From: Nitrospirota bacterium
GTDB lineage: Bacteria > Nitrospirota > UBA9217
DNA length: 64,000 bases
NCBI GenBank assembly: GCA_029858565.1
Contig: JAOUEV010000005.1
Location: 1 to 64,000 of the forward strand
Direction: 5' to 3'
The notes under the pieces are model-generated. The model saw only the letters and a program-made list of their open reading frames with translations, made no database searches and had not been told where the DNA came from. The position numbers and the translations under genes are program-made. Of the stretch, positions 2,088 through 23,796 are shown piece by piece; position 1 is the stretch's first letter, and every line of letters begins with the position of its first letter.

Positions 2088-3665
2088 TTATATCTTGACC
2101 TGTTTTACCGAAAGCACGTTGGGGAGCTTCCGGATCTTGTCCATCACCGGCGCCGGGACCGCGCTGTCTATGCTGACCACGGACATGGCCCGCCCGCCCT
2201 GGGACTCCCTGCCGAACTGCATCCGCGCGATATTGATGCCGTTTTCGCCCATGAGCATGCCGATGCCGCCGATCACTCCCGGTTTGTCGTTATTCATGAG
2301 CACGAGCATGTCGCCATCAGGCACCGTTTCCATGGGGAAATTGTCCACCTGGATGATGCGCGGCTCTTTTTTGCTGTTCAGCGTGCCTGCTGCAGCGGTA
2401 TCCTTCCCGCCAGCCTTGATCCGCAGCGTGACGAGGCTCGTATACTCCGTCGTGTCGCGGGACGTGGAAACCTTCACTTCGATGCCCCGGTCCTTGGCGA
2501 TGAGCGGAGCATTCACATAGTTGACGTTCTCCTGGATCACCGGCGTGAGCAGTCCCTTGAGCGCCGCCAGGGTGATCGGCTCCTGCTTGAGCCCCGCCAC
2601 CTCGCCGCTGTATTCCACCACGACCTGCGTCAGGCCGCCCTCGGCCAACTGGCCGAGGAAGAGCCCCATACGCTCCGCCAGATTGATGTACGGCGAGAGC
2701 GTCGGAAGCTGGTCCGCAGGCACCGATGGGACGTTCACGGCGTTCCGCACGGTACCGGCGATGAGATAGTCCACGATCTGCTCGGCCACGGCCGTAGCCA
2801 CGTTCTCCTGGGCTTCACGCGTGGATGCGCCGAGGTGCGGCGTGGCGATGAAGTTCTCCAGCGTCAGGAGCGGGTGGTTCTCCGGCGGCTCCTTCTCGAA
2901 CACATCGAATGCCGCGGCGGCCACCTTGCCGCTCTTCAGGGCCTCGAAGAGGTCGCCTTCGTTCACGATCCCGCCGCGGGCGCAATTGATGATGCGCACG
3001 TTGTTCTTCATCTTGGCGATCGTGTCCTTGTTGATAAGGTTCGCGGTCTCCTTGGTCTTGGGCGTGTGCAGGGTGATAAAATCCGCGCGCTTCCAGATCG
3101 TCTCAAGATCAGCCAGCTCGATGCCCAGGGATTTCGCCTTCTCAGCTGAAATAAAAGGATCGAACGCCAGGATCTTCATGCCCATGGCTGCACAGCGGTT
3201 CGCGACCACGCCGCCGATGGCGCCGAGTCCCACGATGCCCAGGGTCTTGTCATAGAGCTCCACGCCCTCGAACTTCTTTTTCTCCCACTTGCCCGCTTTG
3301 AGCGAGGAGTAGGCCTGCGGGATCATGCGCGCGCAGGCGAAGATCATGCCGATGGTATGTTCGGCCGTCGTGACCGTGTTGCCGCCCGGGGTGTTCATCA
3401 CCACCACGCCCTTTTTGGTCGCCGCGGGAATCTCCACATTGTCCAGGCCGCTGCCGGCCCGGCCGATGACCTTGAGCTTCGCTGCCTTCTCCAGGAGCGC
3501 GGCGGTCACTTTCGTTGCCGAACGGATGATCAGTGCGTCATACTCACCGATCATCTTCTCGATCTCTTCCGCGCTCGTTTTGCTCCGGAACTCGACCTCG
3601 AGTCCGGCCTTTTTCAATATCTCGACCCCGTTGGCCGAGAGGTTATCGCTGATCAGCACCTTCAT
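2088..3665 (-). CDS. serA: D-3-phosphoglycerate dehydrogenase (long form with ASB/ACT domains)
   Basis: GRAGSGLDN, GLGAIG, INCARGG, TPHLGAST; C-terminal ACT DKPGVIG. Confidence 0.97.
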   Translation of the reverse strand: MKVLISDNLSANGVEILKKAGLEVEFRSKTSAEEIEKMIGEYDALIIRSATKVTAALLEKAAKLKVIGRAGSGLDNVEIPAATKKGVVVMNTPGGNTVTTAEHTIGMIFACARMIPQAYSSLKAGKWEKKKFEGVELYDKTLGIVGLGAIGGVVANRCAAMGMKILAFDPFISAEKAKSLGIELADLETIWKRADFITLHTPKTKETANLINKDTIAKMKNNVRIINCARGGIVNEGDLFEALKSGKVAAAAFDVFEKEPPENHPLLTLENFIATPHLGASTREAQENVATAVAEQIVDYLIAGTVRNAVNVPSVPADQLPTLSPYINLAERMGLFLGQLAEGGLTQVVVEYSGEVAGLKQEPITLAALKGLLTPVIQENVNYVNAPLIAKDRGIEVKVSTSRDTTEYTSLVTLRIKAGGKDTAAAGTLNSKKEPRIIQVDNFPMETVPDGDMLVLMNNDKPGVIGGIGMLMGENGINIARMQFGRESQGGRAMSVVSIDSAVPAPVMDKIRKLPNVLSVKQVKI

Positions 3666-3687
3666 AGTTTCTCCTTAAAGGATGAGC

Positions 3688-3777
3688 AACCACAGATGAA
3701 CACTGATGAGATCAACTGCTAGGCCAAAGAATCCTAAAGGATCGGATTCTCGCCGTCATCTGCGTTAATCTCTGGTT
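3688..3777. repeat. Inverted array of 10-bp repeats (CACAGATGAA type)
   Basis: AACCACAGATGAACACTGATGA ... TCATCTGCGTTAATCTCTGGTT. Confidence 0.75.
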
Positions 3778-3786
3778 AAAAATTTA

Positions 3787-4923
3787 TTATTTCATCAAGA
3801 TCTCTTGCGCTGCCGCCACACCCGTTCCGAGCTTCACCGGATGGCCCAGTCCCTTGAGAACCATCTCGATACCCGCGACCGCGATGATCACATCAAAGGT
3901 GTCCGCGTATCCCAGGTGCGCAATACGGAAGACCTTGCCCTTAAGCTTGTCCTGGCCGCCCGCGCCGGTGATGCCGTACTTGACCCGCAGGTCCTTGTAG
4001 ATGGCCTGGCCGTCCACGCCCGCAGGAGCCTCGATGGCCGTGAGCGCGTTGCTCGGATTCTCCTTCGGGAAGATCTTGAGGTCCAGGGCCTTGACCGCCG
4101 CGCGGGTCGCCCTCGCCAGCCGGTCGTGCCGTGCGAACACCTTGTCAAGCCCCTCGGCCTGGAGCATCTTGATGCACTCGTTCAGCCCAATGATGAGCGT
4201 CACCGCGGAAGTGAAGTTCGTCTGGTTCTTGGCCAGGTTCTCGCGCTCTTTCTTGAAGTTAAAGTAGAACTTGGGCATCTTGGAACTTTCGTTCATTTTC
4301 CAGGCTTTGTCCGAGACCGAAACAAATGCGAGCCCGGGCGGAAGCATGACACCCTTCTGGGAGCCGCCGATCATGATGTCGATGCCCCACTCGTCGGTCC
4401 GGATATCATGCGCCACCAGCGCGCTGATGGCATCGACAACGAAGAGCGCATCGGTCTTTTTGACCACTGCGGCGAGCGCCTTCACGTCATGATACACGCC
4501 CGTAGACGTCTCGTTGGCCTGGACGAACACAGCCTTGATCTTCGGGTTCTTCTTGAGCGCCGCCTCGACAGTTTCCGGCTTCACGGCGTAGCCCCACTCC
4601 ACGGAGATCTCCTCGACCTTGACGCCGTAGGCCTGGCAGATCTTGGTCCATCGCTCGCCGAACTTTCCGCCGTTCACAACGATCACTTCGTCGCCGGGAT
4701 TCAGGAAGTTATTGACGGCGCCCACCATGCCGCCCGTACCGGTGGAGCAAAGGATCAGCACGTCATTCTTGGTCTGGTAAAGCCATTGCAGCCCCTTCTT
4801 CGCCGCGTCGAGCACCGGAACGAAATCCGGCGCACGGTGATGGATGATCGGCATGGCCATGGCCAGAAGCGCCTCTGGCGGAACTGGCGTGGGACCGGGG
4901 GCCAAGAGATATTTTTTCTGCAT
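3787..4923 (-). CDS. Class V PLP aminotransferase (serine-pyruvate/alanine-glyoxylate family; probably acts as phosphoserine aminotransferase here)
   Basis: PGPTP, ETSTGV, VDAIS, GSQK (PLP lysine), RIAHLG; directly upstream of serA. Confidence 0.92.
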   Translation of the reverse strand: MQKKYLLAPGPTPVPPEALLAMAMPIIHHRAPDFVPVLDAAKKGLQWLYQTKNDVLILCSTGTGGMVGAVNNFLNPGDEVIVVNGGKFGERWTKICQAYGVKVEEISVEWGYAVKPETVEAALKKNPKIKAVFVQANETSTGVYHDVKALAAVVKKTDALFVVDAISALVAHDIRTDEWGIDIMIGGSQKGVMLPPGLAFVSVSDKAWKMNESSKMPKFYFNFKKERENLAKNQTNFTSAVTLIIGLNECIKMLQAEGLDKVFARHDRLARATRAAVKALDLKIFPKENPSNALTAIEAPAGVDGQAIYKDLRVKYGITGAGGQDKLKGKVFRIAHLGYADTFDVIIAVAGIEMVLKGLGHPVKLGTGVAAAQEILMK

Positions 4924-18120: not shown

Positions 18121-19092
18121 TTACCGTCGTTCGAATTCCTCCCTCGCTTCGCCCAGGTCCTCAAGCAGCTCCAGGGTGGTCTCGTAATAGACCTGCGCTC
18201 CTGCGGAGAAATGCATCAGGATCCGGTTCAATCGCGCAGGGATGTAGGGATAGATTTTCCGGAGGTTCGCCACGCGGTTGTGGAACACGATGTTGACATC
18301 ATCCGACGTGAGCAACTCCAGCTTCGCCGGGTCCGTTGCCAGCAAACGCTGCGTGGTCACGTCGCCTCTGCCGGCAAGGAACACCAGAATGTTGCCCAGG
18401 CCGAAGAGATCATAGGCAAAGCGGCTTTCCCCATGGCGGTAATTGAAGTCATAGTCGATCCACCGGTATCGTCCTGTTGACGCGTCCTTGATCAGATGGT
18501 CCCTGCGGATATCGCCATGCTTTTCCCCGCTGTCGTGAAGGAACCGGATCGCCTCCACAATGCCCAGATACTCGTCGAGCACGATGGGGAAATGGTCGAA
18601 GAAATAATCCTCATGTCCGTTCCCGAGCCCGATCGTGTTCTGGGAAAGCGTCCTTCCCTGAATATAATCCAGGATGCGCAAAGGATTTCCCGTTGAATCA
18701 GCGACCGTGATGCCCTGCATGAACTCGCCCCGCCCCTTCACCAGCTCCAGGATGCGGGCCTCCTTCTGCGGACTCCTGACGCATTCGAACACCAGGCTGC
18801 CGATCCTGGCGTTGAACCGTTCCCTGAAGACCCATTTCAGGATCTTCACCTCTCCGGTCAGCAGATTGATGGCCCGCTTGACCCAGAACTTGGGCTCATC
18901 CTCGATCCCGAACCTGCCTTCGCGCTCGTTGTTCCTGACAAAGTACGGGACATCGCCCAGCACGACCACGTCATCGTAGTCCACGCGAAAGAAATCCGCG
19001 GTGTCCTTGATCCGCACCTTCTTCGGCACCCGGTCCTTCGGCATCCACTTCCGGATCATGGACAGCAGTTCTTTTTCCCCGTATTCGGCCAT
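18121..19092 (-). CDS. Protein-kinase-like (ePK fold) protein
   Basis: EARILELV, HGDIRRDH, WIDYD, DLFGLGNIL. Confidence 0.8.
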   Translation of the reverse strand: MAEYGEKELLSMIRKWMPKDRVPKKVRIKDTADFFRVDYDDVVVLGDVPYFVRNNEREGRFGIEDEPKFWVKRAINLLTGEVKILKWVFRERFNARIGSLVFECVRSPQKEARILELVKGRGEFMQGITVADSTGNPLRILDYIQGRTLSQNTIGLGNGHEDYFFDHFPIVLDEYLGIVEAIRFLHDSGEKHGDIRRDHLIKDASTGRYRWIDYDFNYRHGESRFAYDLFGLGNILVFLAGRGDVTTQRLLATDPAKLELLTSDDVNIVFHNRVANLRKIYPYIPARLNRILMHFSAGAQVYYETTLELLEDLGEAREEFERR

Positions 19093-19327
19093 GAAAGACA
19101 CCCCTGCACCTCAGATTCAATTATATCCTAACCCGAAACCGCGCGTGGCCGTCAGACGCGATGCTGCCGACCAGCAGTTGTCTTTTTTAATGCGGAATTC
19201 CGCGCTCCCCATTCGGTATTTACTCGGTTTTTCCTTGACTTTTCCCGTCGATAACGCTAAGTTCTGATAGTCGTCACCTCCGAAGTTCAGGGGCCCGCTC
19301 GGGCCGGGAAAAGGGGCTCACGGATCC

Positions 19328-20080
19328 ATGTCGTACCACGTCAAACTCGAGATATTCGAAGGTCCCATGGACCTTCTCCTCCACCTCATCAAGAAGCACG
19401 AACTGGACATCTACGACATCCCCATAGCCCCCATCACCCAGCAGTACCTCGAATACATCCAGCTCATGCAAAGCCTGGACATGGAGATCGCCGGCGAGTT
19501 CCTGGTGATGGCTTCCACGCTCACGCATATCAAGTCCAAGATGCTCCTTCCGCCCACGGACACCCCGGACGCCGACGAGGAGGGAGTGGACCCGCGGGCG
19601 GAGCTCATCCGCAGGCTGCTGGAATACAAGCGGTTCAAGGACGCGGCCGCCTCGCTGGAACAGCGCGAGGACGCCTGGTCCCAGGTCTACACCCGCGAGT
19701 CCGAGATCACGCCCGAGCTTCCGGCCGAGGATCAGCCGCTGCTGTTCGACTTCCATCTCTTCGATCTCCTGGCCGCGCTCAGGGACGTGATGAACCGCGT
19801 TCCCGACTCAGGCCTCGAGATCACCGCCGAATCCGTTTCCATCACGGAAAAGATCGCCCATATCCTGTCGCGGCTCGAGAGCGTGGACAGCATGCTCTTT
19901 GCCGATCTCTTTGAAAAGGACACGACGAAAGCCCACGTGATCGCCACCTTCATGGCGCTCCTGGAGCTGATGAAGAACCGCGTTGTCAAGGCCGTCCAGG
20001 TCGAGCAGTTCGGCGCGATCCGGCTCATGAAGTCCGTGAACGAACAGCCGTCGACCATGAACCTCTACGAGGGGATGTAG
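19328..20080 (+). CDS. scpA: Segregation and condensation protein A (kleisin)
   Basis: FEGPMDLLLHLI, EFLVMASTL, KSKMLLP, TFMALLEL. Confidence 0.96.
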   Translation: MSYHVKLEIFEGPMDLLLHLIKKHELDIYDIPIAPITQQYLEYIQLMQSLDMEIAGEFLVMASTLTHIKSKMLLPPTDTPDADEEGVDPRAELIRRLLEYKRFKDAAASLEQREDAWSQVYTRESEITPELPAEDQPLLFDFHLFDLLAALRDVMNRVPDSGLEITAESVSITEKIAHILSRLESVDSMLFADLFEKDTTKAHVIATFMALLELMKNRVVKAVQVEQFGAIRLMKSVNEQPSTMNLYEGM

Positions 20081-20081
20081 C

Positions 20082-20921
20082 ATGGATATCCGTCCGCTGG
20101 CCTTTGACAAGAAGTTCTCGGACATCGAAAAGGCGGTCTACGCCGATCGCACCCTCATCGGCGGCCTGGTGGACCTCCTGGCGGAACGGAACAACGATGT
20201 GCGCACCGGGGTCCTGAACATCCTGTCCCGCGTTGGCTTTGACTATCCCCAGGACACGCGGCCCTACCTGAACGCGCTGATAGCGCTCATGGACGATGCG
20301 GATGCCTTTGTGAAGATCGACGCTGCGAACGCCGTCGCGAACCTTGCCTACCGGTACGAGGACGAGTCCAGCAGGGCCATGCCCTCGCTCCGGAAGCTCC
20401 TGGACCACCCGCAAAGCCTGGTGCGGCAGGAAGCGGCCTATGCCCTGGGAAATATCGGCTTCTCCCATGTGCATCTCGTGAAGGACCTGGTCCCGCGGCT
20501 TATCTCCATGCTCGAGAGCGGGGACGACGATGAACGGGAGGCGGCATCGCATGCGTTGGGCAAGATCGGCATCATCGAACCCCAGCTCATCCGGGGGATC
20601 CTGCCCAAGCTCATCGACGTGCTCCAGTACTCAAAGGAAGCGACCTGCGGCGGCGTGCTCTTTGCCCTGGGGGCCATCGGCCTGCACTATCCGAAGGAAG
20701 TAGCGGACCTGGTGCCCCGGCTGATCCAGTACCTGGACAGCGGCCACCCCAACGCGGTGAAAAACGCCATTGCAGCCCTCGGGAACATCGGCAGCTCGAA
20801 CCGCGAACTGGTCGCGGACGCACTCCCCTTGATCCGGAAGCATCTGGAGAGTTCGGACCTGGACGTGAAGATGAACGCCAAGGTGGCCCTGGGACGGCTC
20901 GGCGATCCGGCGGGGATGTAA
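20082..20921 (+). CDS. HEAT-repeat protein (about 7 repeats, 37-aa period)
   Basis: Repeated VR.AA.ALG.IG motif; starts 1 nt after the scpA stop. Confidence 0.9.
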   Translation: MDIRPLAFDKKFSDIEKAVYADRTLIGGLVDLLAERNNDVRTGVLNILSRVGFDYPQDTRPYLNALIALMDDADAFVKIDAANAVANLAYRYEDESSRAMPSLRKLLDHPQSLVRQEAAYALGNIGFSHVHLVKDLVPRLISMLESGDDDEREAASHALGKIGIIEPQLIRGILPKLIDVLQYSKEATCGGVLFALGAIGLHYPKEVADLVPRLIQYLDSGHPNAVKNAIAALGNIGSSNRELVADALPLIRKHLESSDLDVKMNAKVALGRLGDPAGM

Positions 20922-20939
20922 CAGTAAAGAACTTTTTTT

Positions 20940-21032
20940 GCCACGGATTTACACGGATACACACGGATGGCAAGATCATAGCTTCCAGGCCTGACTCGTT
21001 TTATCCGTGTCCATCTGTGTCCATCCGTGGTT
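20940..21032. repeat. Inverted array of 10-bp repeats (CACGGAT type)
   Basis: CCACGGATTT ACACGGATAC ACACGGATGG ... TTATCCGTGT CCATCTGTGT CCATCCGTGG. Confidence 0.88.
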
Positions 21033-21062
21033 AATATATTTTCTTTATCGAGGTAGGAAAAT

Positions 21063-21746
21063 TTGGACGATACGCAATTGAAATCTGCCCTGGAGGCGCT
21101 CCTGCTCATCAGTGGCACACCGTTGACCGTTGATCGCTTCAAGGGGATCTTCGAGGAATCGACAAAGGAACAGATCGAGGAGCAGCTCCAGGCGCTCAAA
21201 TCAGAGTATGAGGCGCGGAACGCTGGTATCATGCTGGCTGAAGTGGCCAATGGATGGCAGCTGGCCACCTGCGCCGAGCAGGCACCCTGGATCAGGAAGT
21301 TCCGGACCGTCAAGGTGAGCACGCGGCTGTCCCGTCCCGCTCTCGAGACCCTGGCCATCATCGCCTATAAACAGCCCATCACGCGGCCGGAGATCGAGGG
21401 AGTCCGCGGAGTGAACATCGGCGGAATCGTGCGCAACCTGATGGAGCGCCGCCTCGTGAAGATCGTCGGCAAGAAGGACGTTCCGGGCAAACCGATGCTC
21501 TACGGCACCACCGCCGAGTTCCTGCAGTATTTCGGCCTAAAGGACCTTTCGTCCCTGCCCACGCTGAAGGAATTCCAGGAGCTGGACGCGGGCGAGGACG
21601 CCATGATCGCTGAACAGACCGGCGCGGAGACCGCGGAGGAAGAAGCCTCTGCGGAAGGATTGCCGTCGCCGGACGATACCGAGGCCGCTGACAGGCAGGA
21701 AGAATCGGCGGATGCGGTCGCATCGGAGGCACCACACCAGGGATGA
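21063..21746 (+). CDS. scpB: Segregation and condensation protein B (KITE)
   Basis: LEALL, LSRPALETLAIIAYKQPITR, RGVN, YGTTAEFLQYFGL. Confidence 0.96.
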   Translation: MDDTQLKSALEALLLISGTPLTVDRFKGIFEESTKEQIEEQLQALKSEYEARNAGIMLAEVANGWQLATCAEQAPWIRKFRTVKVSTRLSRPALETLAIIAYKQPITRPEIEGVRGVNIGGIVRNLMERRLVKIVGKKDVPGKPMLYGTTAEFLQYFGLKDLSSLPTLKEFQELDAGEDAMIAEQTGAETAEEEASAEGLPSPDDTEAADRQEESADAVASEAPHQG

Positions 21747-22687
21747 TCGAGCTTCAGGACGCGCTCCGGAAGAAGGAGATCTGGGCCATCGGCGGCGGCA
21801 AGGGCGGGATCGGCAAGAGCCTGATCACCGGCAATATCGGGATCACCCTGGCCCGGCTCAAGAAGAAAGTGCTGCTCGTTGACGCGGACCTGGGCGGAGC
21901 CAATCTCCACACCACGCTCGGGATCGGCGTGCCGGAAATGACGCTCTCCGATTTCCTGAACCGCCGCGTCGAGAACATCAACGATGTCATCATCAAGACC
22001 GTCATCCCCAATCTCTCCCTCATCAGCGGCGCCCAGGACTTCCTGGATGCCGCAAATCCAAATTTCGCACAGAAGACCCGGCTGCTCCGTCATCTCGAGA
22101 CCCTGGACGCGGACTACATCCTCCTCGATCTCGGCGCGGGAACCTCCTATAATATCCTCGATTTCTTCCTTTTCTCGGATCACGGCATCCTCGTGGTCCT
22201 GCCCGAGCCAACAGCCATCGAGAACGCCTACCGGTTCATCAAGAGCGCCTTCTACCGCCGGTTCAAGAAGGTCGTCGCGGACCAGCAGATCAAGGACCTC
22301 ATTGACGCGGCCATGGACCAGAAGAATACCATGGGCATCCGCACGCCCTTCGACCTGATCGAACGGATCAAGGGCATGGATCGGGAGGTGGGCGATATCC
22401 TGGAGCTCGAGGTGAACAAGTTCCGGCCCAAGCTGGTGGTGAACCAGGTCCGCACCAAGAACGACGTCCAGATCGGCTTTTCCATGAAAAGCGCCTGCCA
22501 GAAGTATTTCGGCATCAACCTGGAATACCTGGGGTACGTGGAGTATGACGACTGCGTGTGGCAGTCCATCCGCAGCAAACGCCCCCTTGTGGTAGAATAT
22601 CCCTATTCACGGCCGGCAAGGTGCATCGAGCGTATCGTCCACAACCTGCTGCGCAAGGAGCAGATGACGCTCAGCATGCTGTACTGA
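21743..22687 (+). CDS. MinD/FlhG-family P-loop ATPase
   Basis: GGKGGIGKS, VDADLGGANL, DLGAG, PEPTAIENAY. Confidence 0.9.
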   Translation: MIELQDALRKKEIWAIGGGKGGIGKSLITGNIGITLARLKKKVLLVDADLGGANLHTTLGIGVPEMTLSDFLNRRVENINDVIIKTVIPNLSLISGAQDFLDAANPNFAQKTRLLRHLETLDADYILLDLGAGTSYNILDFFLFSDHGILVVLPEPTAIENAYRFIKSAFYRRFKKVVADQQIKDLIDAAMDQKNTMGIRTPFDLIERIKGMDREVGDILELEVNKFRPKLVVNQVRTKNDVQIGFSMKSACQKYFGINLEYLGYVEYDDCVWQSIRSKRPLVVEYPYSRPARCIERIVHNLLRKEQMTLSMLY

Positions 22688-22693
22688 AAAATT

Positions 22694-23377
22694 ATGCTCA
22701 AAAAAATCGAGGACATGAACCACTATGAGCTCCTGGAAGTGAGCCCCCGGGCCACGGCGCAGGAGATCCATAAGGCTTATGAACGTATCCGCAAGATCTA
22801 CGATCCAAACTCCATTGCCCTGTACTCGCTTTTCTCTCCCGAAGAGACCGAGATCATCCGCCAGCGCATCGAGGATGCCTACCGCACCCTGATCTATGAC
22901 GAGAACCGGAGGGCATACGACCTTTCGCTTCGCTCCCTGCCGGATGCGCTGCCGCCCGACCATCCCCGTCAGCGCACCTTTGCAACGCCTCTGCCGCCAT
23001 CCCCGCGGACCGAACCGGTCCGGACGCCGGAGCCCCATCACCAGGACCCCCGTCCGGTCCCCCACGCGCCTGAGACCGCTGCCGCACAGGAACCTCTCCG
23101 GTCCGCGCCGGCGGACATCACCGAGTTCACAGGCCCGATGCTCAAGATGCTGCGCGAACAGCGTGGCCTGAGCGTCCAGAACATCGCGGACATCACCAAG
23201 ATGAGCACCCGGTACATCGAATCCATCGAGAGCGAGAACTACCAGAAACTCCCTGCACGGCCCTATCTTCGCGGGTTCCTGGTGATCTACACCAAGGCAG
23301 TGGGATATGAACCGGACCGGATCGTAACCGATTATATGCGGCGATTCGACGCGGCCAGGAATCCGGCGAAGAAATGA
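22694..23377 (+). CDS. J-domain-like protein (no HPD) with a C-terminal RodZ-like HTH
   Basis: HYELLEVS...EIHKAY...AYRTL; LKMLREQRGLS...LPARPYLRGFL. Confidence 0.85.
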   Translation: MLKKIEDMNHYELLEVSPRATAQEIHKAYERIRKIYDPNSIALYSLFSPEETEIIRQRIEDAYRTLIYDENRRAYDLSLRSLPDALPPDHPRQRTFATPLPPSPRTEPVRTPEPHHQDPRPVPHAPETAAAQEPLRSAPADITEFTGPMLKMLREQRGLSVQNIADITKMSTRYIESIESENYQKLPARPYLRGFLVIYTKAVGYEPDRIVTDYMRRFDAARNPAKK

Positions 23378-23447
23378 AGCAACAGTGATACAGCGGCAAG
23401 CCGTAAGGAGTAAGCGGTCGAAACATCAACAACCAAGGGAAAAAAGG

Positions 23448-23477
23448 AAAAGGCAGCCGAATCAGCTGCCTTTTTTG
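23448..23477. terminator. Intrinsic terminator between convergent genes
   Basis: AAAAGGCAGC-CGAATCA-GCTGCCTTTTTT. Confidence 0.75.
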
Positions 23478-23496
23478 CATCTCCTCTTCGGCCCGG

Positions 23497-23796
23497 TCAT
23501 TTTCCCGGAAAGGGCCGGAACAATCCCGTGGTATCCCACTCCGATACTTTAACAACATCCTGCTGACGAAACCAGAACCGTGCGCAGGCCGTGCATCGTT
23601 CCATCTTAACAGGCCCGGGGACCGACTCGATCAACCCAAGGCCGCACCGGGGACAGCGCATCCAAAATCGTTCTGCCTCTCCCGGGTCTATCTCGTTGCG
23701 ATCACGCCTTCGTTCCCTGACGGTGGAACCGGAACGCCGCCGCGTTTTGTTCGGCTGAGGCCTGGTATTCTTTTTCACTTCCTGCGATCTCACCAT
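23497..23796 (-). CDS. Small Zn-ribbon (zf-TFIIB-like) protein
   Basis: WMRCPRCG...ERCTACARFW; AGGAG RBS. Confidence 0.65.
   Translation of the reverse strand: MVRSQEVKKNTRPQPNKTRRRSGSTVRERRRDRNEIDPGEAERFWMRCPRCGLGLIESVPGPVKMERCTACARFWFRQQDVVKVSEWDTTGLFRPFPGK

What the first reader, a model, noticed from the sequence alone, without database searches (positions are those of the whole stretch)
19328..21746. HEAT-repeat gene between scpA and scpB: a bacterial HAWK-like SMC subunit?
Seen: scpA stop at 20080, HEAT ATG at 20082 (translational coupling), then scpB. The protein is almost entirely about seven repeats of 37 aa, longer than the roughly 31-aa PBS-lyase type. Known: scpA and scpB are usually adjacent; bacterial Smc-ScpAB uses KITE subunits, whereas eukaryotic cohesin and condensin kleisins bind HEAT-repeat HAWK proteins. 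Inference: a kleisin-associated HEAT protein in a bacterium would be a new SMC-complex variant with both KITE and HAWK-like parts. It may instead be a passenger insertion, since a repeat element follows it.
Basis: partly seen in the sequence, partly recalled or inferred. Interest (0 to 1): 0.75.

Follow-up and report, generated by a model that had tools for sequence, protein, structure and literature searches.

The report
HEAT-repeat gene inside scpA-scpB operon
A small, well-conserved HEAT-repeat protein gene really does sit between the chromosome-condensation genes scpA and scpB in one group of uncultured Nitrospirota, but nothing yet shows that it joins the SMC complex, and it is not a relative of eukaryotic HAWK proteins.

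Summary
scpA (19328-20080), a 279-aa HEAT ORF (20082-20921) and scpB (21063-21746) are as described. The 37-aa period is clear: 58 of 242 identities at offset 37, against 7-28 at the other offsets.

The gene is not strain-specific. Its profile finds it in 51 of 63 other genomes of the same Nitrospirota family and in 1 of 237 from other families, a weak generic hit. All 48 named loci have scpA directly upstream. dN/dS is 0.10-0.19, like ScpA and ScpB.

The HAWK reading gains nothing beyond gene order:
- The fold is a generic HEAT/ARM solenoid, closest to designed armadillo and alphaRep proteins.
- ScpA has the usual 250 aa, and ScpB is kept.
- One genus has scpA-scpB without the gene and no visible change in ScpA or ScpB.
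- The nearest outside homologues (42% identity, same length and motifs) lie beside rpsT, with no scpA or scpB match in the flanks fetched.
- The tight scpA-HEAT junction is an exception; the median gap is 97.5 nt in 44 loci.

Best reading: a lineage-specific adaptor gene embedded in the scpAB operon. A role with Smc-ScpAB is possible but unproven.

The parts
19328..20080 (+). scpA (kleisin), 250 aa
   Evidence: PF02616 E 2.3e-43. NCBIfam segregation/condensation protein A models score 240 bits, below the equivalog cut-offs. Orthologues are 65-85% identical in 48 of 48 related loci.
20082..20921 (+). HEAT/ARM-type solenoid protein, 279 aa: seven 37-aa repeats plus a C-terminal cap. Family motifs are RxGFDxP, GNIGF, DxDExE, ALGKIG, KEA[ST]CGG and GxHYP.
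   Evidence: Pfam HEAT_2 96.8 bits. AF2 pLDDT 91.3 with 16 helices. Period 37. 70-82% identity across about 19 genera. Motifs shared with the P0003 and P0007 clades.
20930..21045 (.). Imperfect inverted repeat (REP/MITE-like) in the HEAT-scpB spacer
   Evidence: Arms 20930-20968 and 21003-21041, 74% complementary. 30-33-nt pieces at 91-97% identity occur on contigs C57, C11, C51, C121, C58 and C19. Other short repeats occupy the same spacers in relatives.
21063..21746 (+). scpB (KITE subunit), 227 aa, TTG start, acidic C-terminal tail
   Evidence: PF04079 E 1.7e-54. TIGR00281 scores 143 bits against a cut-off of 89. TTG start in 40 of 44 loci; a GAGGT box lies a few nt upstream in most loci shown.
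21743..22687 (+). MinD/ParA-type P-loop ATPase, 314 aa; its start overlaps the scpB stop
   Evidence: AAA_31, ParA and CbiA hits. minD_bact scores 80 bits, below its cut-off. 83-97% identity in 42 of 48 loci. dN/dS 0.03-0.08.
22694..23377 (+). DnaJ (J-domain) plus HTH_25 (RodZ-type) protein, 227 aa
   Evidence: PF13413 E 7e-18 and PF00226 E 2.3e-9. Present after the ATPase in most related loci at 41-64% identity, 88% in a short piece cut by a contig end.

Best explanation
The ORF encodes a soluble alpha-solenoid of seven and a half 37-aa HEAT repeats. This kind of protein works by binding a partner protein or an extended peptide along its surface. The gene lies between scpA and scpB in most of one family of uncultured Nitrospirota; whether it entered once in their ancestor was not resolved. 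It is kept under purifying selection and points the same way as scpA, scpB, a MinD/ParA-like ATPase gene and a DnaJ-HTH gene, so it is probably expressed with them.

It is not a HAWK homologue, and the complex encoded here remains an ordinary KITE-type Smc-ScpAB. The same 279-aa family, with the same signature motifs, occurs elsewhere next to rpsT. One sister genus does without it and shows no change in ScpA or ScpB. I therefore think its partner is most likely something other than the kleisin: it is a small adaptor riding in the operon.

Shown: the gene, its fold class, its conservation, its distribution and its contexts. Inferred: co-transcription, the binding mode and the identity (or non-identity) of the partner.
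For: - Fold: the model is a confident generic solenoid. Best matches are designed armadillo proteins (Z 25.6), importins, adaptins, E. coli YibA (Z 18.7) and CpcE (Z 17.1). By sequence, alphaRep is closest at E 3e-41.
- Distribution: restricted to family f1, in 51 of 63 genomes against 1 weak hit in 237.
- Gene order: conserved in 20 of 20 and 48 of 48 loci, two sets that partly overlap.
- Selection: dN/dS is 0.10-0.19 in 7 pairs, the same range as ScpA and ScpB.
- Outside homologues: P0003 and P0007 align end to end at about 42% identity with shared motifs. In all three P0003-clade contigs with enough flank the gene follows rpsT. The annotated one also has rhodanese, holA and comEC beside it, with no ScpA or ScpB match in the flanks.
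- Genus g11: four genomes (two of them 98-100% complete) have scpA-scpB-minD-like without the gene, and no copy was found elsewhere in them. Their ScpA and ScpB look like those of HEAT-bearing genomes.
- Fluid neighbourhood: in two other Nitrospirota families scpA is followed by unrelated genes, an amidase and a glutamate dehydrogenase.
- Fusions: no ScpA-HEAT or ScpB-HEAT fusion appears among the 120 best of 489 long ScpA proteins or the 120 best of 630 long ScpB proteins.
Against: - An insertion exactly between scpA and scpB, which overlap or abut in two other Nitrospirota families, is an unusual place for an unrelated gene.
- It has stayed there across about 19 genera, with the same selective constraint as its neighbours.
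- In the window's genus the ribosome-binding site of the HEAT gene lies inside scpA.
- A contig from an RNA library, 95% identical, bridges the scpA/HEAT junction. By the tool's own caveats this is only a weak hint.
- At this depth the whole neighbourhood is syntenic, so conservation of order cannot separate 'partner' from 'passenger' in either direction.
- The flanks of the outside homologues cover only about 4 kb each side.
- The ScpA tree does not resolve whether genus g11 lost the gene or never had it.
Confidence: 0.55

Rival explanations
1. It is a true accessory subunit or regulator of Smc-ScpAB in this lineage. The small HEAT solenoid docks on ScpA, on ScpB (for example its acidic tail) or on the Smc head or neck, and tunes loading or ATPase activity. 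This would be analogous to a HAWK, not homologous, and would be added on top of the KITE subunit.
For: The gene is placed inside the scpA-scpB pair, is co-oriented, and is conserved in 48 of 48 loci. Its constraint equals that of ScpA and ScpB. The RBS lies within scpA in the window. An RNA-library contig spans the junction (weak). A canonical Smc is present in the genome. A recent survey could not detect HAWKs in prokaryotes (10.1101/2024.01.07.573240, passages read), so this niche is unoccupied.
Against: The closest homologues elsewhere are not shown to be linked to scpAB. Genus g11 lacks the gene, with unchanged ScpA and ScpB. ScpA has no extra linker (250 aa). No Rosetta-stone fusion appears in the proteins listed. 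Tight coupling is not conserved.
Confidence: 0.22
2. It is a scaffold for the downstream module. The HEAT protein works with the very strongly conserved MinD/ParA-like ATPase and the DnaJ-HTH (RodZ-type) protein in positioning or division, and only shares the transcription unit with ScpAB.
For: All five genes are co-oriented. The ATPase start overlaps the scpB stop. The ATPase and the DnaJ-HTH gene follow in 42 of 48 loci. No match to the MinD-like ATPase was found in the short stretches fetched downstream of scpA-scpB in two other Nitrospirota families.
Against: Genus g11 keeps scpB and the MinD-like gene (90-93% identical) without the HEAT gene. No ParA-like or DnaJ gene lies beside the P0003 clade. 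No test of contact was possible.
Confidence: 0.13
3. It is a neutral or decaying passenger brought in by a mobile element, as suggested by the inverted repeat after it.
For: REP/MITE-like repeats flank the gene in this and related genomes.
Against: dN/dS is 0.10-0.19. Most loci have intact frames. GC content matches its neighbours. There are no mobility genes nearby. tblastn against plasmids gives 9 records, all below 30% identity and all generic HEAT hits. The repeats differ between genomes and also fill other spacers.
Confidence: 0.03

Closest known systems
Eukaryotic HAWKs (CAP-D2/Cnd1, CAP-G, Scc3, Pds5, Nipbl)
   Same: A HEAT-repeat solenoid encoded with a kleisin. Pfam Cnd1 (36.9 bits, cut-off 26.4) and PDS5 (34.6 bits, cut-off 27) are hit over parts of their profiles.
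   Different: Those hits are weaker than the generic HEAT_2, HEAT_EZ and Arm hits, and archaeal HEAT clusters carry the same labels. No HAWK is listed among the Foldseek matches, the 50 best fold matches or the 60 best PDB sequence matches. The protein has 279 aa, whereas HAWKs are several times longer (recalled). The kleisin is short and the KITE subunit ScpB is retained, whereas HAWKs came with kleisin elongation and replaced KITEs (10.1101/2024.01.07.573240, passages).
Bacterial and archaeal HEAT_2 / alphaRep-type repeat proteins, including PBS-lyase-like CpcE and NblB and E. coli YibA
   Same: The best sequence and fold relatives: alphaRep E 3e-41, YibA 1oyz Z 18.7 and CpcE 5n3u Z 17.1. 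Small, stand-alone solenoids with the A-x-x-ALG-x-IG repeat core.
   Different: The period is 37 aa rather than about 31. The family has its own motifs (KEA[ST]CGG loop, RxGFDxP, GxHYP). NCBIfam NblB and CpcE scores (about 23-25 bits) are far below their cut-offs.
Canonical Smc-ScpAB operon (scpA-scpB adjacent)
   Same: ScpA, ScpB and Smc are all present and ordinary. scpA-scpB are adjacent in two other Nitrospirota families.
   Different: An 840-nt gene with spacers of about 100 nt on each side separates scpA from scpB. A MinD/ParA-like ATPase gene and a DnaJ-HTH gene follow.
DVU0298 family (NCBIfam NF045662)
   Same: The best NCBIfam hit, 57.9 bits.
   Different: Below the cut-off of 75, and only profile positions 121-174 are matched. 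The one paper that mentions DVU0298 is unrelated by its title and abstract.
Asgard ScpA with a TPR-like neighbour (earlier finding e1-5607717)
   Same: A kleisin gene beside a lineage-restricted helical-repeat protein. That follow-up also judged it not a HAWK.
   Different: A different repeat class, a different domain of life and a different position (it does not lie between scpA and scpB). Not examined here.

Membership tests
HAWK (HEAT proteins associated with kleisins) | Alpha-solenoid built of HEAT repeats | tested here: met
   HEAT_2 96.8 bits. The AF2 model has two helices per 37-aa repeat, pLDDT 91.3. Period confirmed.
HAWK (HEAT proteins associated with kleisins) | Specific sequence or fold kinship with Cnd1, CAP-G, Scc3, Pds5 or Nipbl beyond generic HEAT similarity | tested here: inconclusive
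   Cnd1 (36.9 bits) and PDS5 (34.6 bits) pass their cut-offs, but only over parts of the profiles and below the generic HEAT families. No HAWK is listed among the matches shown.
HAWK (HEAT proteins associated with kleisins) | Binds the kleisin | not testable with these tools
   Needs biochemistry or a decisive complex prediction.
HAWK (HEAT proteins associated with kleisins) | Goes with an elongated kleisin and takes the place of KITE subunits | tested here: not met
   ScpA has 250 aa, like its relatives. ScpB is present and conserved. The criterion comes from 10.1101/2024.01.07.573240 (passages).
HAWK (HEAT proteins associated with kleisins) | Large multi-repeat protein, several hundred to over a thousand residues (recalled) | tested here: not met
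   279 aa, 7.5 repeats.
HEAT_2 / HEAT-like repeat proteins of bacteria and archaea (PF13646 clan) | Score above the Pfam gathering threshold, with several repeats | tested here: met
   96.8 bits against a cut-off of 27.7, four stretches.
DVU0298 family (NF045662) | Score above the NCBIfam cut-off | tested here: not met
   57.9 bits against a cut-off of 75.
Smc-ScpAB (the surrounding system) | ScpA kleisin, ScpB KITE subunit and Smc with a hinge in the genome | tested here: met
   PF02616 and PF04079. SMC hinge PF06470 at 109 bits on contig C119.

The most novel reading that the evidence does not exclude
In this Nitrospirota family, Smc-ScpAB has gained a fourth, HEAT-repeat subunit that binds ScpA or ScpB. 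That would be an independent bacterial invention of a kleisin-associated solenoid sitting alongside the KITE subunit, and a living model of the mixed KITE-plus-HEAT stage implied by scenarios in which a HAWK replaced the KITE subunits during eukaryotic condensin and cohesin evolution.
Probability: 0.2. Interest if true: 0.75.

Novelty: new member of a known kind. Interest (0 to 1): 0.35.

Why it matters
A recent survey reports that HAWKs could not be found in prokaryotes (10.1101/2024.01.07.573240, passages read). If the protein did bind ScpAB, it would be the first bacterial SMC complex with a HEAT-repeat partner. It would show that kleisins can recruit solenoids without losing their KITE subunits. 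As things stand, it is a well-defined, strongly conserved small HEAT family of unknown partner. It comes with a natural control (a sister genus without it), and the proteins should be easy to co-express and test.

My paper searches found no description of a HEAT gene between scpA and scpB:
- (ScpA, ScpB, HEAT repeat, Nitrospirota): 8 papers hold at least 3 of the 4 terms; the 6 listed are not about this, judged by title and abstract start only.
- the one DVU0298 paper is unrelated.
- (Hawk, Kite, kleisin, prokaryot): 12 of 62 papers were listed, and only one of them was read.

Tried and rejected
- Complex prediction: ScpA, two ScpB and the HEAT protein, each with its alignment. Scores were 0.01 and 0.00 against a mark of 0.32. 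The tool's verdict was 'no answer', so it counts neither for nor against binding.
- The genome search on the records behind L089 and L090 failed because they are not held. I could not see whether scpAB lie elsewhere on that 80-kb contig.
- The search for homologous proteins with the HEAT protein gave only fragments and one generic hit.
- The ESM Atlas gave the protein's own cluster plus generic archaeal HEAT clusters.
- The scan's earlier notes held nothing for this place or this sequence.
- The promoter scan found no sigma-70-like site in 19000-23600, and terminator-like sites were at chance level.
- The 534-aa open frame reported for G003 is not a ScpA-HEAT fusion. In that record's locus L024, ScpA (2990-3739) and HEAT (3832-4665) are separate matches in different reading frames.
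- The HEAT-bearing contig binned with genus g11 (G187, identical to L041, 3.7 kb) has a ScpA that groups elsewhere (SH-aLRT 84). I did not use it to argue for loss. The careful tree did not finish; the quick tree leaves the backbone unresolved.
- Sequencing runs: two RNA-library runs held only 5% of the sampled words. Laid at 80% likeness they give scattered short contigs of relatives, and parts without cover mean nothing.
Full report
**Observation**

- scpA, 19328-20080: PF02616, E 2.3e-43.
- A 279-aa ORF, 20082-20921: HEAT_2 96.8 bits, HEAT_EZ 84.8, Arm 72.4, HEAT 64.6, and weaker Adaptin_N, HEAT_PBS, Cnd1 (36.9) and PDS5 (34.6).
- scpB, 21063-21746: TTG start, PF04079, E 1.7e-54.

One base separates the scpA stop from the HEAT ATG, and a GAGGGG box lies inside the end of scpA.

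The 37-aa period is unambiguous. Offset 37 gives 58 identities in 242 positions, and every other offset from 20 to 59 gives 7-28. That is seven full repeats and a 20-aa cap.

An imperfect inverted repeat (20930-20968 / 21003-21041) fills the spacer before scpB. Pieces of it recur on six other contigs.

Downstream, in the same direction, lie two more genes:
- a MinD/ParA-like ATPase gene (21743-22687) whose start overlaps the scpB stop;
- a DnaJ plus HTH_25 gene (22694-23377).

**Lineage and conservation**

The window is contig C85 of a 3.9-Mb assembly, 100% complete. Named relatives are all uncultured Nitrospirota MAGs, for example the GWC2_57_9 and UBA9217 isolates.

- With the single protein, 21 of 24 other genomes of the same family (19 genera) have a match. 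Most are full-length orthologues at 70-82% identity. Other families of the phylum give only weak HEAT hits.
- With a profile of 20 orthologues (A1, mean column identity 85%), 51 of 63 other family genomes match at E <= 1e-10. So does 1 of 237 genomes from other families, and that hit (42 bits) is generic.
- In 20 of 20 loci from the genome search, ScpA is directly upstream. The same holds in 48 of 48 from genome contigs. These two sets overlap in part, because several are the same records.
- ScpB is downstream in 20 of 20 and in 46 of 48. The two exceptions end inside the HEAT gene.
- The MinD-like gene follows in 18 of 20 and in 42 of 48. Most of the others stop at a contig end.
- Pairwise dN/dS against seven relatives is 0.10-0.19 for HEAT, 0.13-0.19 for ScpA, 0.10-0.21 for ScpB and 0.03-0.08 for the ATPase. 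dS is 0.5-1.0 for the three nearest pairs and close to saturation for the rest.

The gene is therefore real, old within this family and constrained. It is not a strain-specific insert.

**Limits of that conservation**

At this depth the entire neighbourhood is syntenic, from a Usp gene and a kinase-like gene upstream to the DnaJ-HTH gene downstream. Conserved order alone says little about function.

The abutting scpA/HEAT junction is an exception. Across 44 loci the scpA-to-HEAT spacer has a median of 97.5 nt (range -1 to 250). The HEAT-to-scpB spacer has a median of 118.5 nt (range 56 to 665). These spacers hold assorted short repeats that differ from genome to genome.

Twelve family genomes lack a HEAT match.
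- Four, all of genus g11 (G013, G063, G082, G224), have an assembled scpA-scpB-minD-like locus with no HEAT gene and no remnant. G013 and G082 are 98-100% complete.
- One more g11 genome (G094) has scpA close to a contig end.
- One (G002) has scpA cut by a contig end.
- Three (G010, G161, G171) also lack an ScpA match, so the locus is simply not assembled.
- Three were not examined.

ScpA and ScpB of the HEAT-less genus align without any distinguishing feature. A quick ScpA tree groups the four HEAT-less loci (SH-aLRT 93) but leaves the backbone unresolved, so loss and primary absence cannot be told apart. The single HEAT-bearing contig binned into g11 groups elsewhere and may be mis-binned.

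In other Nitrospirota families, scpA and scpB are directly adjacent in two. In two others scpA is followed by unrelated genes, an amidase and a convergent glutamate dehydrogenase.

**What the protein is**

AF2 with the alignment gives a confident model: pLDDT 91.3, pTM 0.84, 16 helices, two per repeat. The weakest stretch (pLDDT about 64) is at residues 181-190, the conserved KEATCGG loop.

- Foldseek and the Foldseek-independent search both place designed armadillo-repeat proteins first (Z 25.6). Importins, adaptins, beta-catenin, E. coli YibA (Z 18.7) and CpcE (Z 17.1) follow. No HAWK is among the rows shown.
- A profile search of PDB sequences puts alphaRep first (E 3e-41), then designed armadillo proteins and importin-alpha. 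No HAWK is among the best 60 of 208.
- The Cnd1 and PDS5 Pfam hits pass their cut-offs but cover only parts of those profiles. They are what any regular HEAT array collects, and archaeal HEAT clusters in the Atlas carry the same labels.

The protein is mildly acidic (pI 5.5). ScpA and ScpB are more acidic, at pI 4.7 and 4.65.

**Relatives elsewhere**

An exhaustive profile search of 1.84 billion representatives mostly returns long, multi-stretch HEAT proteins. Two hits stand out as single end-to-end matches of the same size: P0003 (279 aa, E 9e-80) and P0007 (282 aa, E 2e-75).

They are about 42% identical to the window protein. They share its non-repeat signature: RxGFDxP, GNIGF, DxDExE, ALGKIG, KEA[ST]CGG and GxHYP.

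Seven metagenome contigs carry P0003-like genes.
- In the three with enough flank (L089, L090, L091) the gene follows rpsT.
- In L089, the one annotated in full, the order is UPF0182 (-), rpsT (+), HEAT (+), rhodanese (-), holA (-), comEC (-). L090 and L091 have ORFs of matching size and strand at the downstream positions.
- No ScpA or ScpB match was found in about 4 kb on either side.
- That organism is distant from this one: its UPF0182 is 45% identical.

The flanks are short, and the context of P0007 could not be fetched.

**Other tests bearing on an SMC link**

- A canonical Smc (hinge, 109 bits) is encoded on another contig.
- Among long proteins containing ScpA, the 120 best of 489 show fusions to isoleucyl-tRNA synthetase, ScpB, a CCA-adding-type enzyme, an AAA domain and a peptidase domain. 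None is fused to HEAT repeats.
- Among the 120 best of 630 long ScpB proteins, none carries HEAT repeats.
- tblastn against plasmids gives 9 records, all below 30% identity, so there is no sign of a mobile origin.
- One 278-nt contig from a metatranscriptomic library, 95% identical, spans 19942-20219 and so bridges the scpA/HEAT junction. The tool warns that such contigs prove neither transcription nor a single transcript.

**Comparison with what is known**

A recent survey states that HAWKs could not be detected in prokaryotes. It also says that HAWKs replaced KITEs together with kleisin elongation (10.1101/2024.01.07.573240, passages read). Of Wells et al. 2017 (PMC5228436) I saw only the search listing and the start of the abstract.

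Here the kleisin is of ordinary length and the KITE subunit is kept. The HEAT protein is a fraction of the size of a HAWK (HAWK size recalled). Two defining features of HAWKs are thus tested and not met, specific kinship is inconclusive, and binding is untested.

Functionally the protein may still work 'like' a kleisin-associated solenoid. That claim rests on gene position only.

**Verdict**

The finding is a real and tidy gene-order variant: scpA, then a 279-aa HEAT gene, then scpB, family-wide in one uncultured Nitrospirota lineage.

| Reading | Confidence |
|---|---|
| Lineage-specific adaptor gene embedded in, and probably expressed with, the scpAB operon; its partner is not the kleisin | about 0.55 |
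| True Smc-ScpAB accessory subunit | about 0.2 |
| Partner of the downstream MinD-like / DnaJ-HTH module | about 0.13 |
| Decaying passenger (contradicted by the selection data) | about 0.03 |

Interest is moderate to low until a binding test is done. The test is cheap, and a positive result would be notable.

Noticed in passing
window 21743-22687 (+), and L021-L068: The MinD/ParA-like ATPase after scpB is far more conserved than its neighbours: 83-97% identity across genera and dN/dS 0.03-0.08. Its start overlaps the scpB stop, and a DnaJ plus HTH_25 (RodZ-type) protein follows. It falls below the NCBIfam MinD cut-offs, so it is not a canonical MinD.
   Followed up: partly
window 18121-19101 (-): This divergently oriented 326-aa protein has no Pfam or NCBIfam hit. 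It is conserved at 54-83% identity upstream of scpA in relatives. Atlas feature search places it with 'putative serine/threonine protein kinase' clusters, mostly from Thermodesulfobacteriota. This is a lead only.
   Followed up: partly
window 20930-21045; G000 contigs C57, C11, C51, C121, C58, C19: A low-copy REP/MITE-like inverted repeat built from CACGGAT-type units. The scpA-HEAT and HEAT-scpB spacers of related genomes carry other short tandem or inverted repeats that differ between genomes.
   Followed up: partly
L097 406-1323 (-), L098 406-1257 (-): In two HEAT-less g11 genomes the scpB ORF appears to have an N-terminal Q/E/P-rich extension of about 60-90 aa. In L097 the usual MEDQQLKS start is found both before the extension and, in part (QLKS), after it. 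The choice of start codon was not verified.
   Followed up: no
ScpA C-terminus: alignment A2 columns about 260-275; window 20040-20077: Most ScpA proteins of the family, including those of the HEAT-less genus, end in a conserved tail, DTATGNLFG, after the winged-helix domain. The window's genus has a different tail (..MNLYEGM). Its function is unknown.
   Followed up: no
L089 3092-3829 (+): The ribosomal protein S20 gene upstream of the P0003-type HEAT gene encodes a tail of about 160 aa rich in K, A and E after the S20 domain.
   Followed up: no
L014/G014 C2 169187-170024; L066; L068; G249 C21: In a few assemblies the HEAT gene, and in L068 also ScpB and the ATPase gene, is split into two or three frames. 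These may be frameshifts or assembly errors, and several are long-read-style contigs.
   Followed up: no
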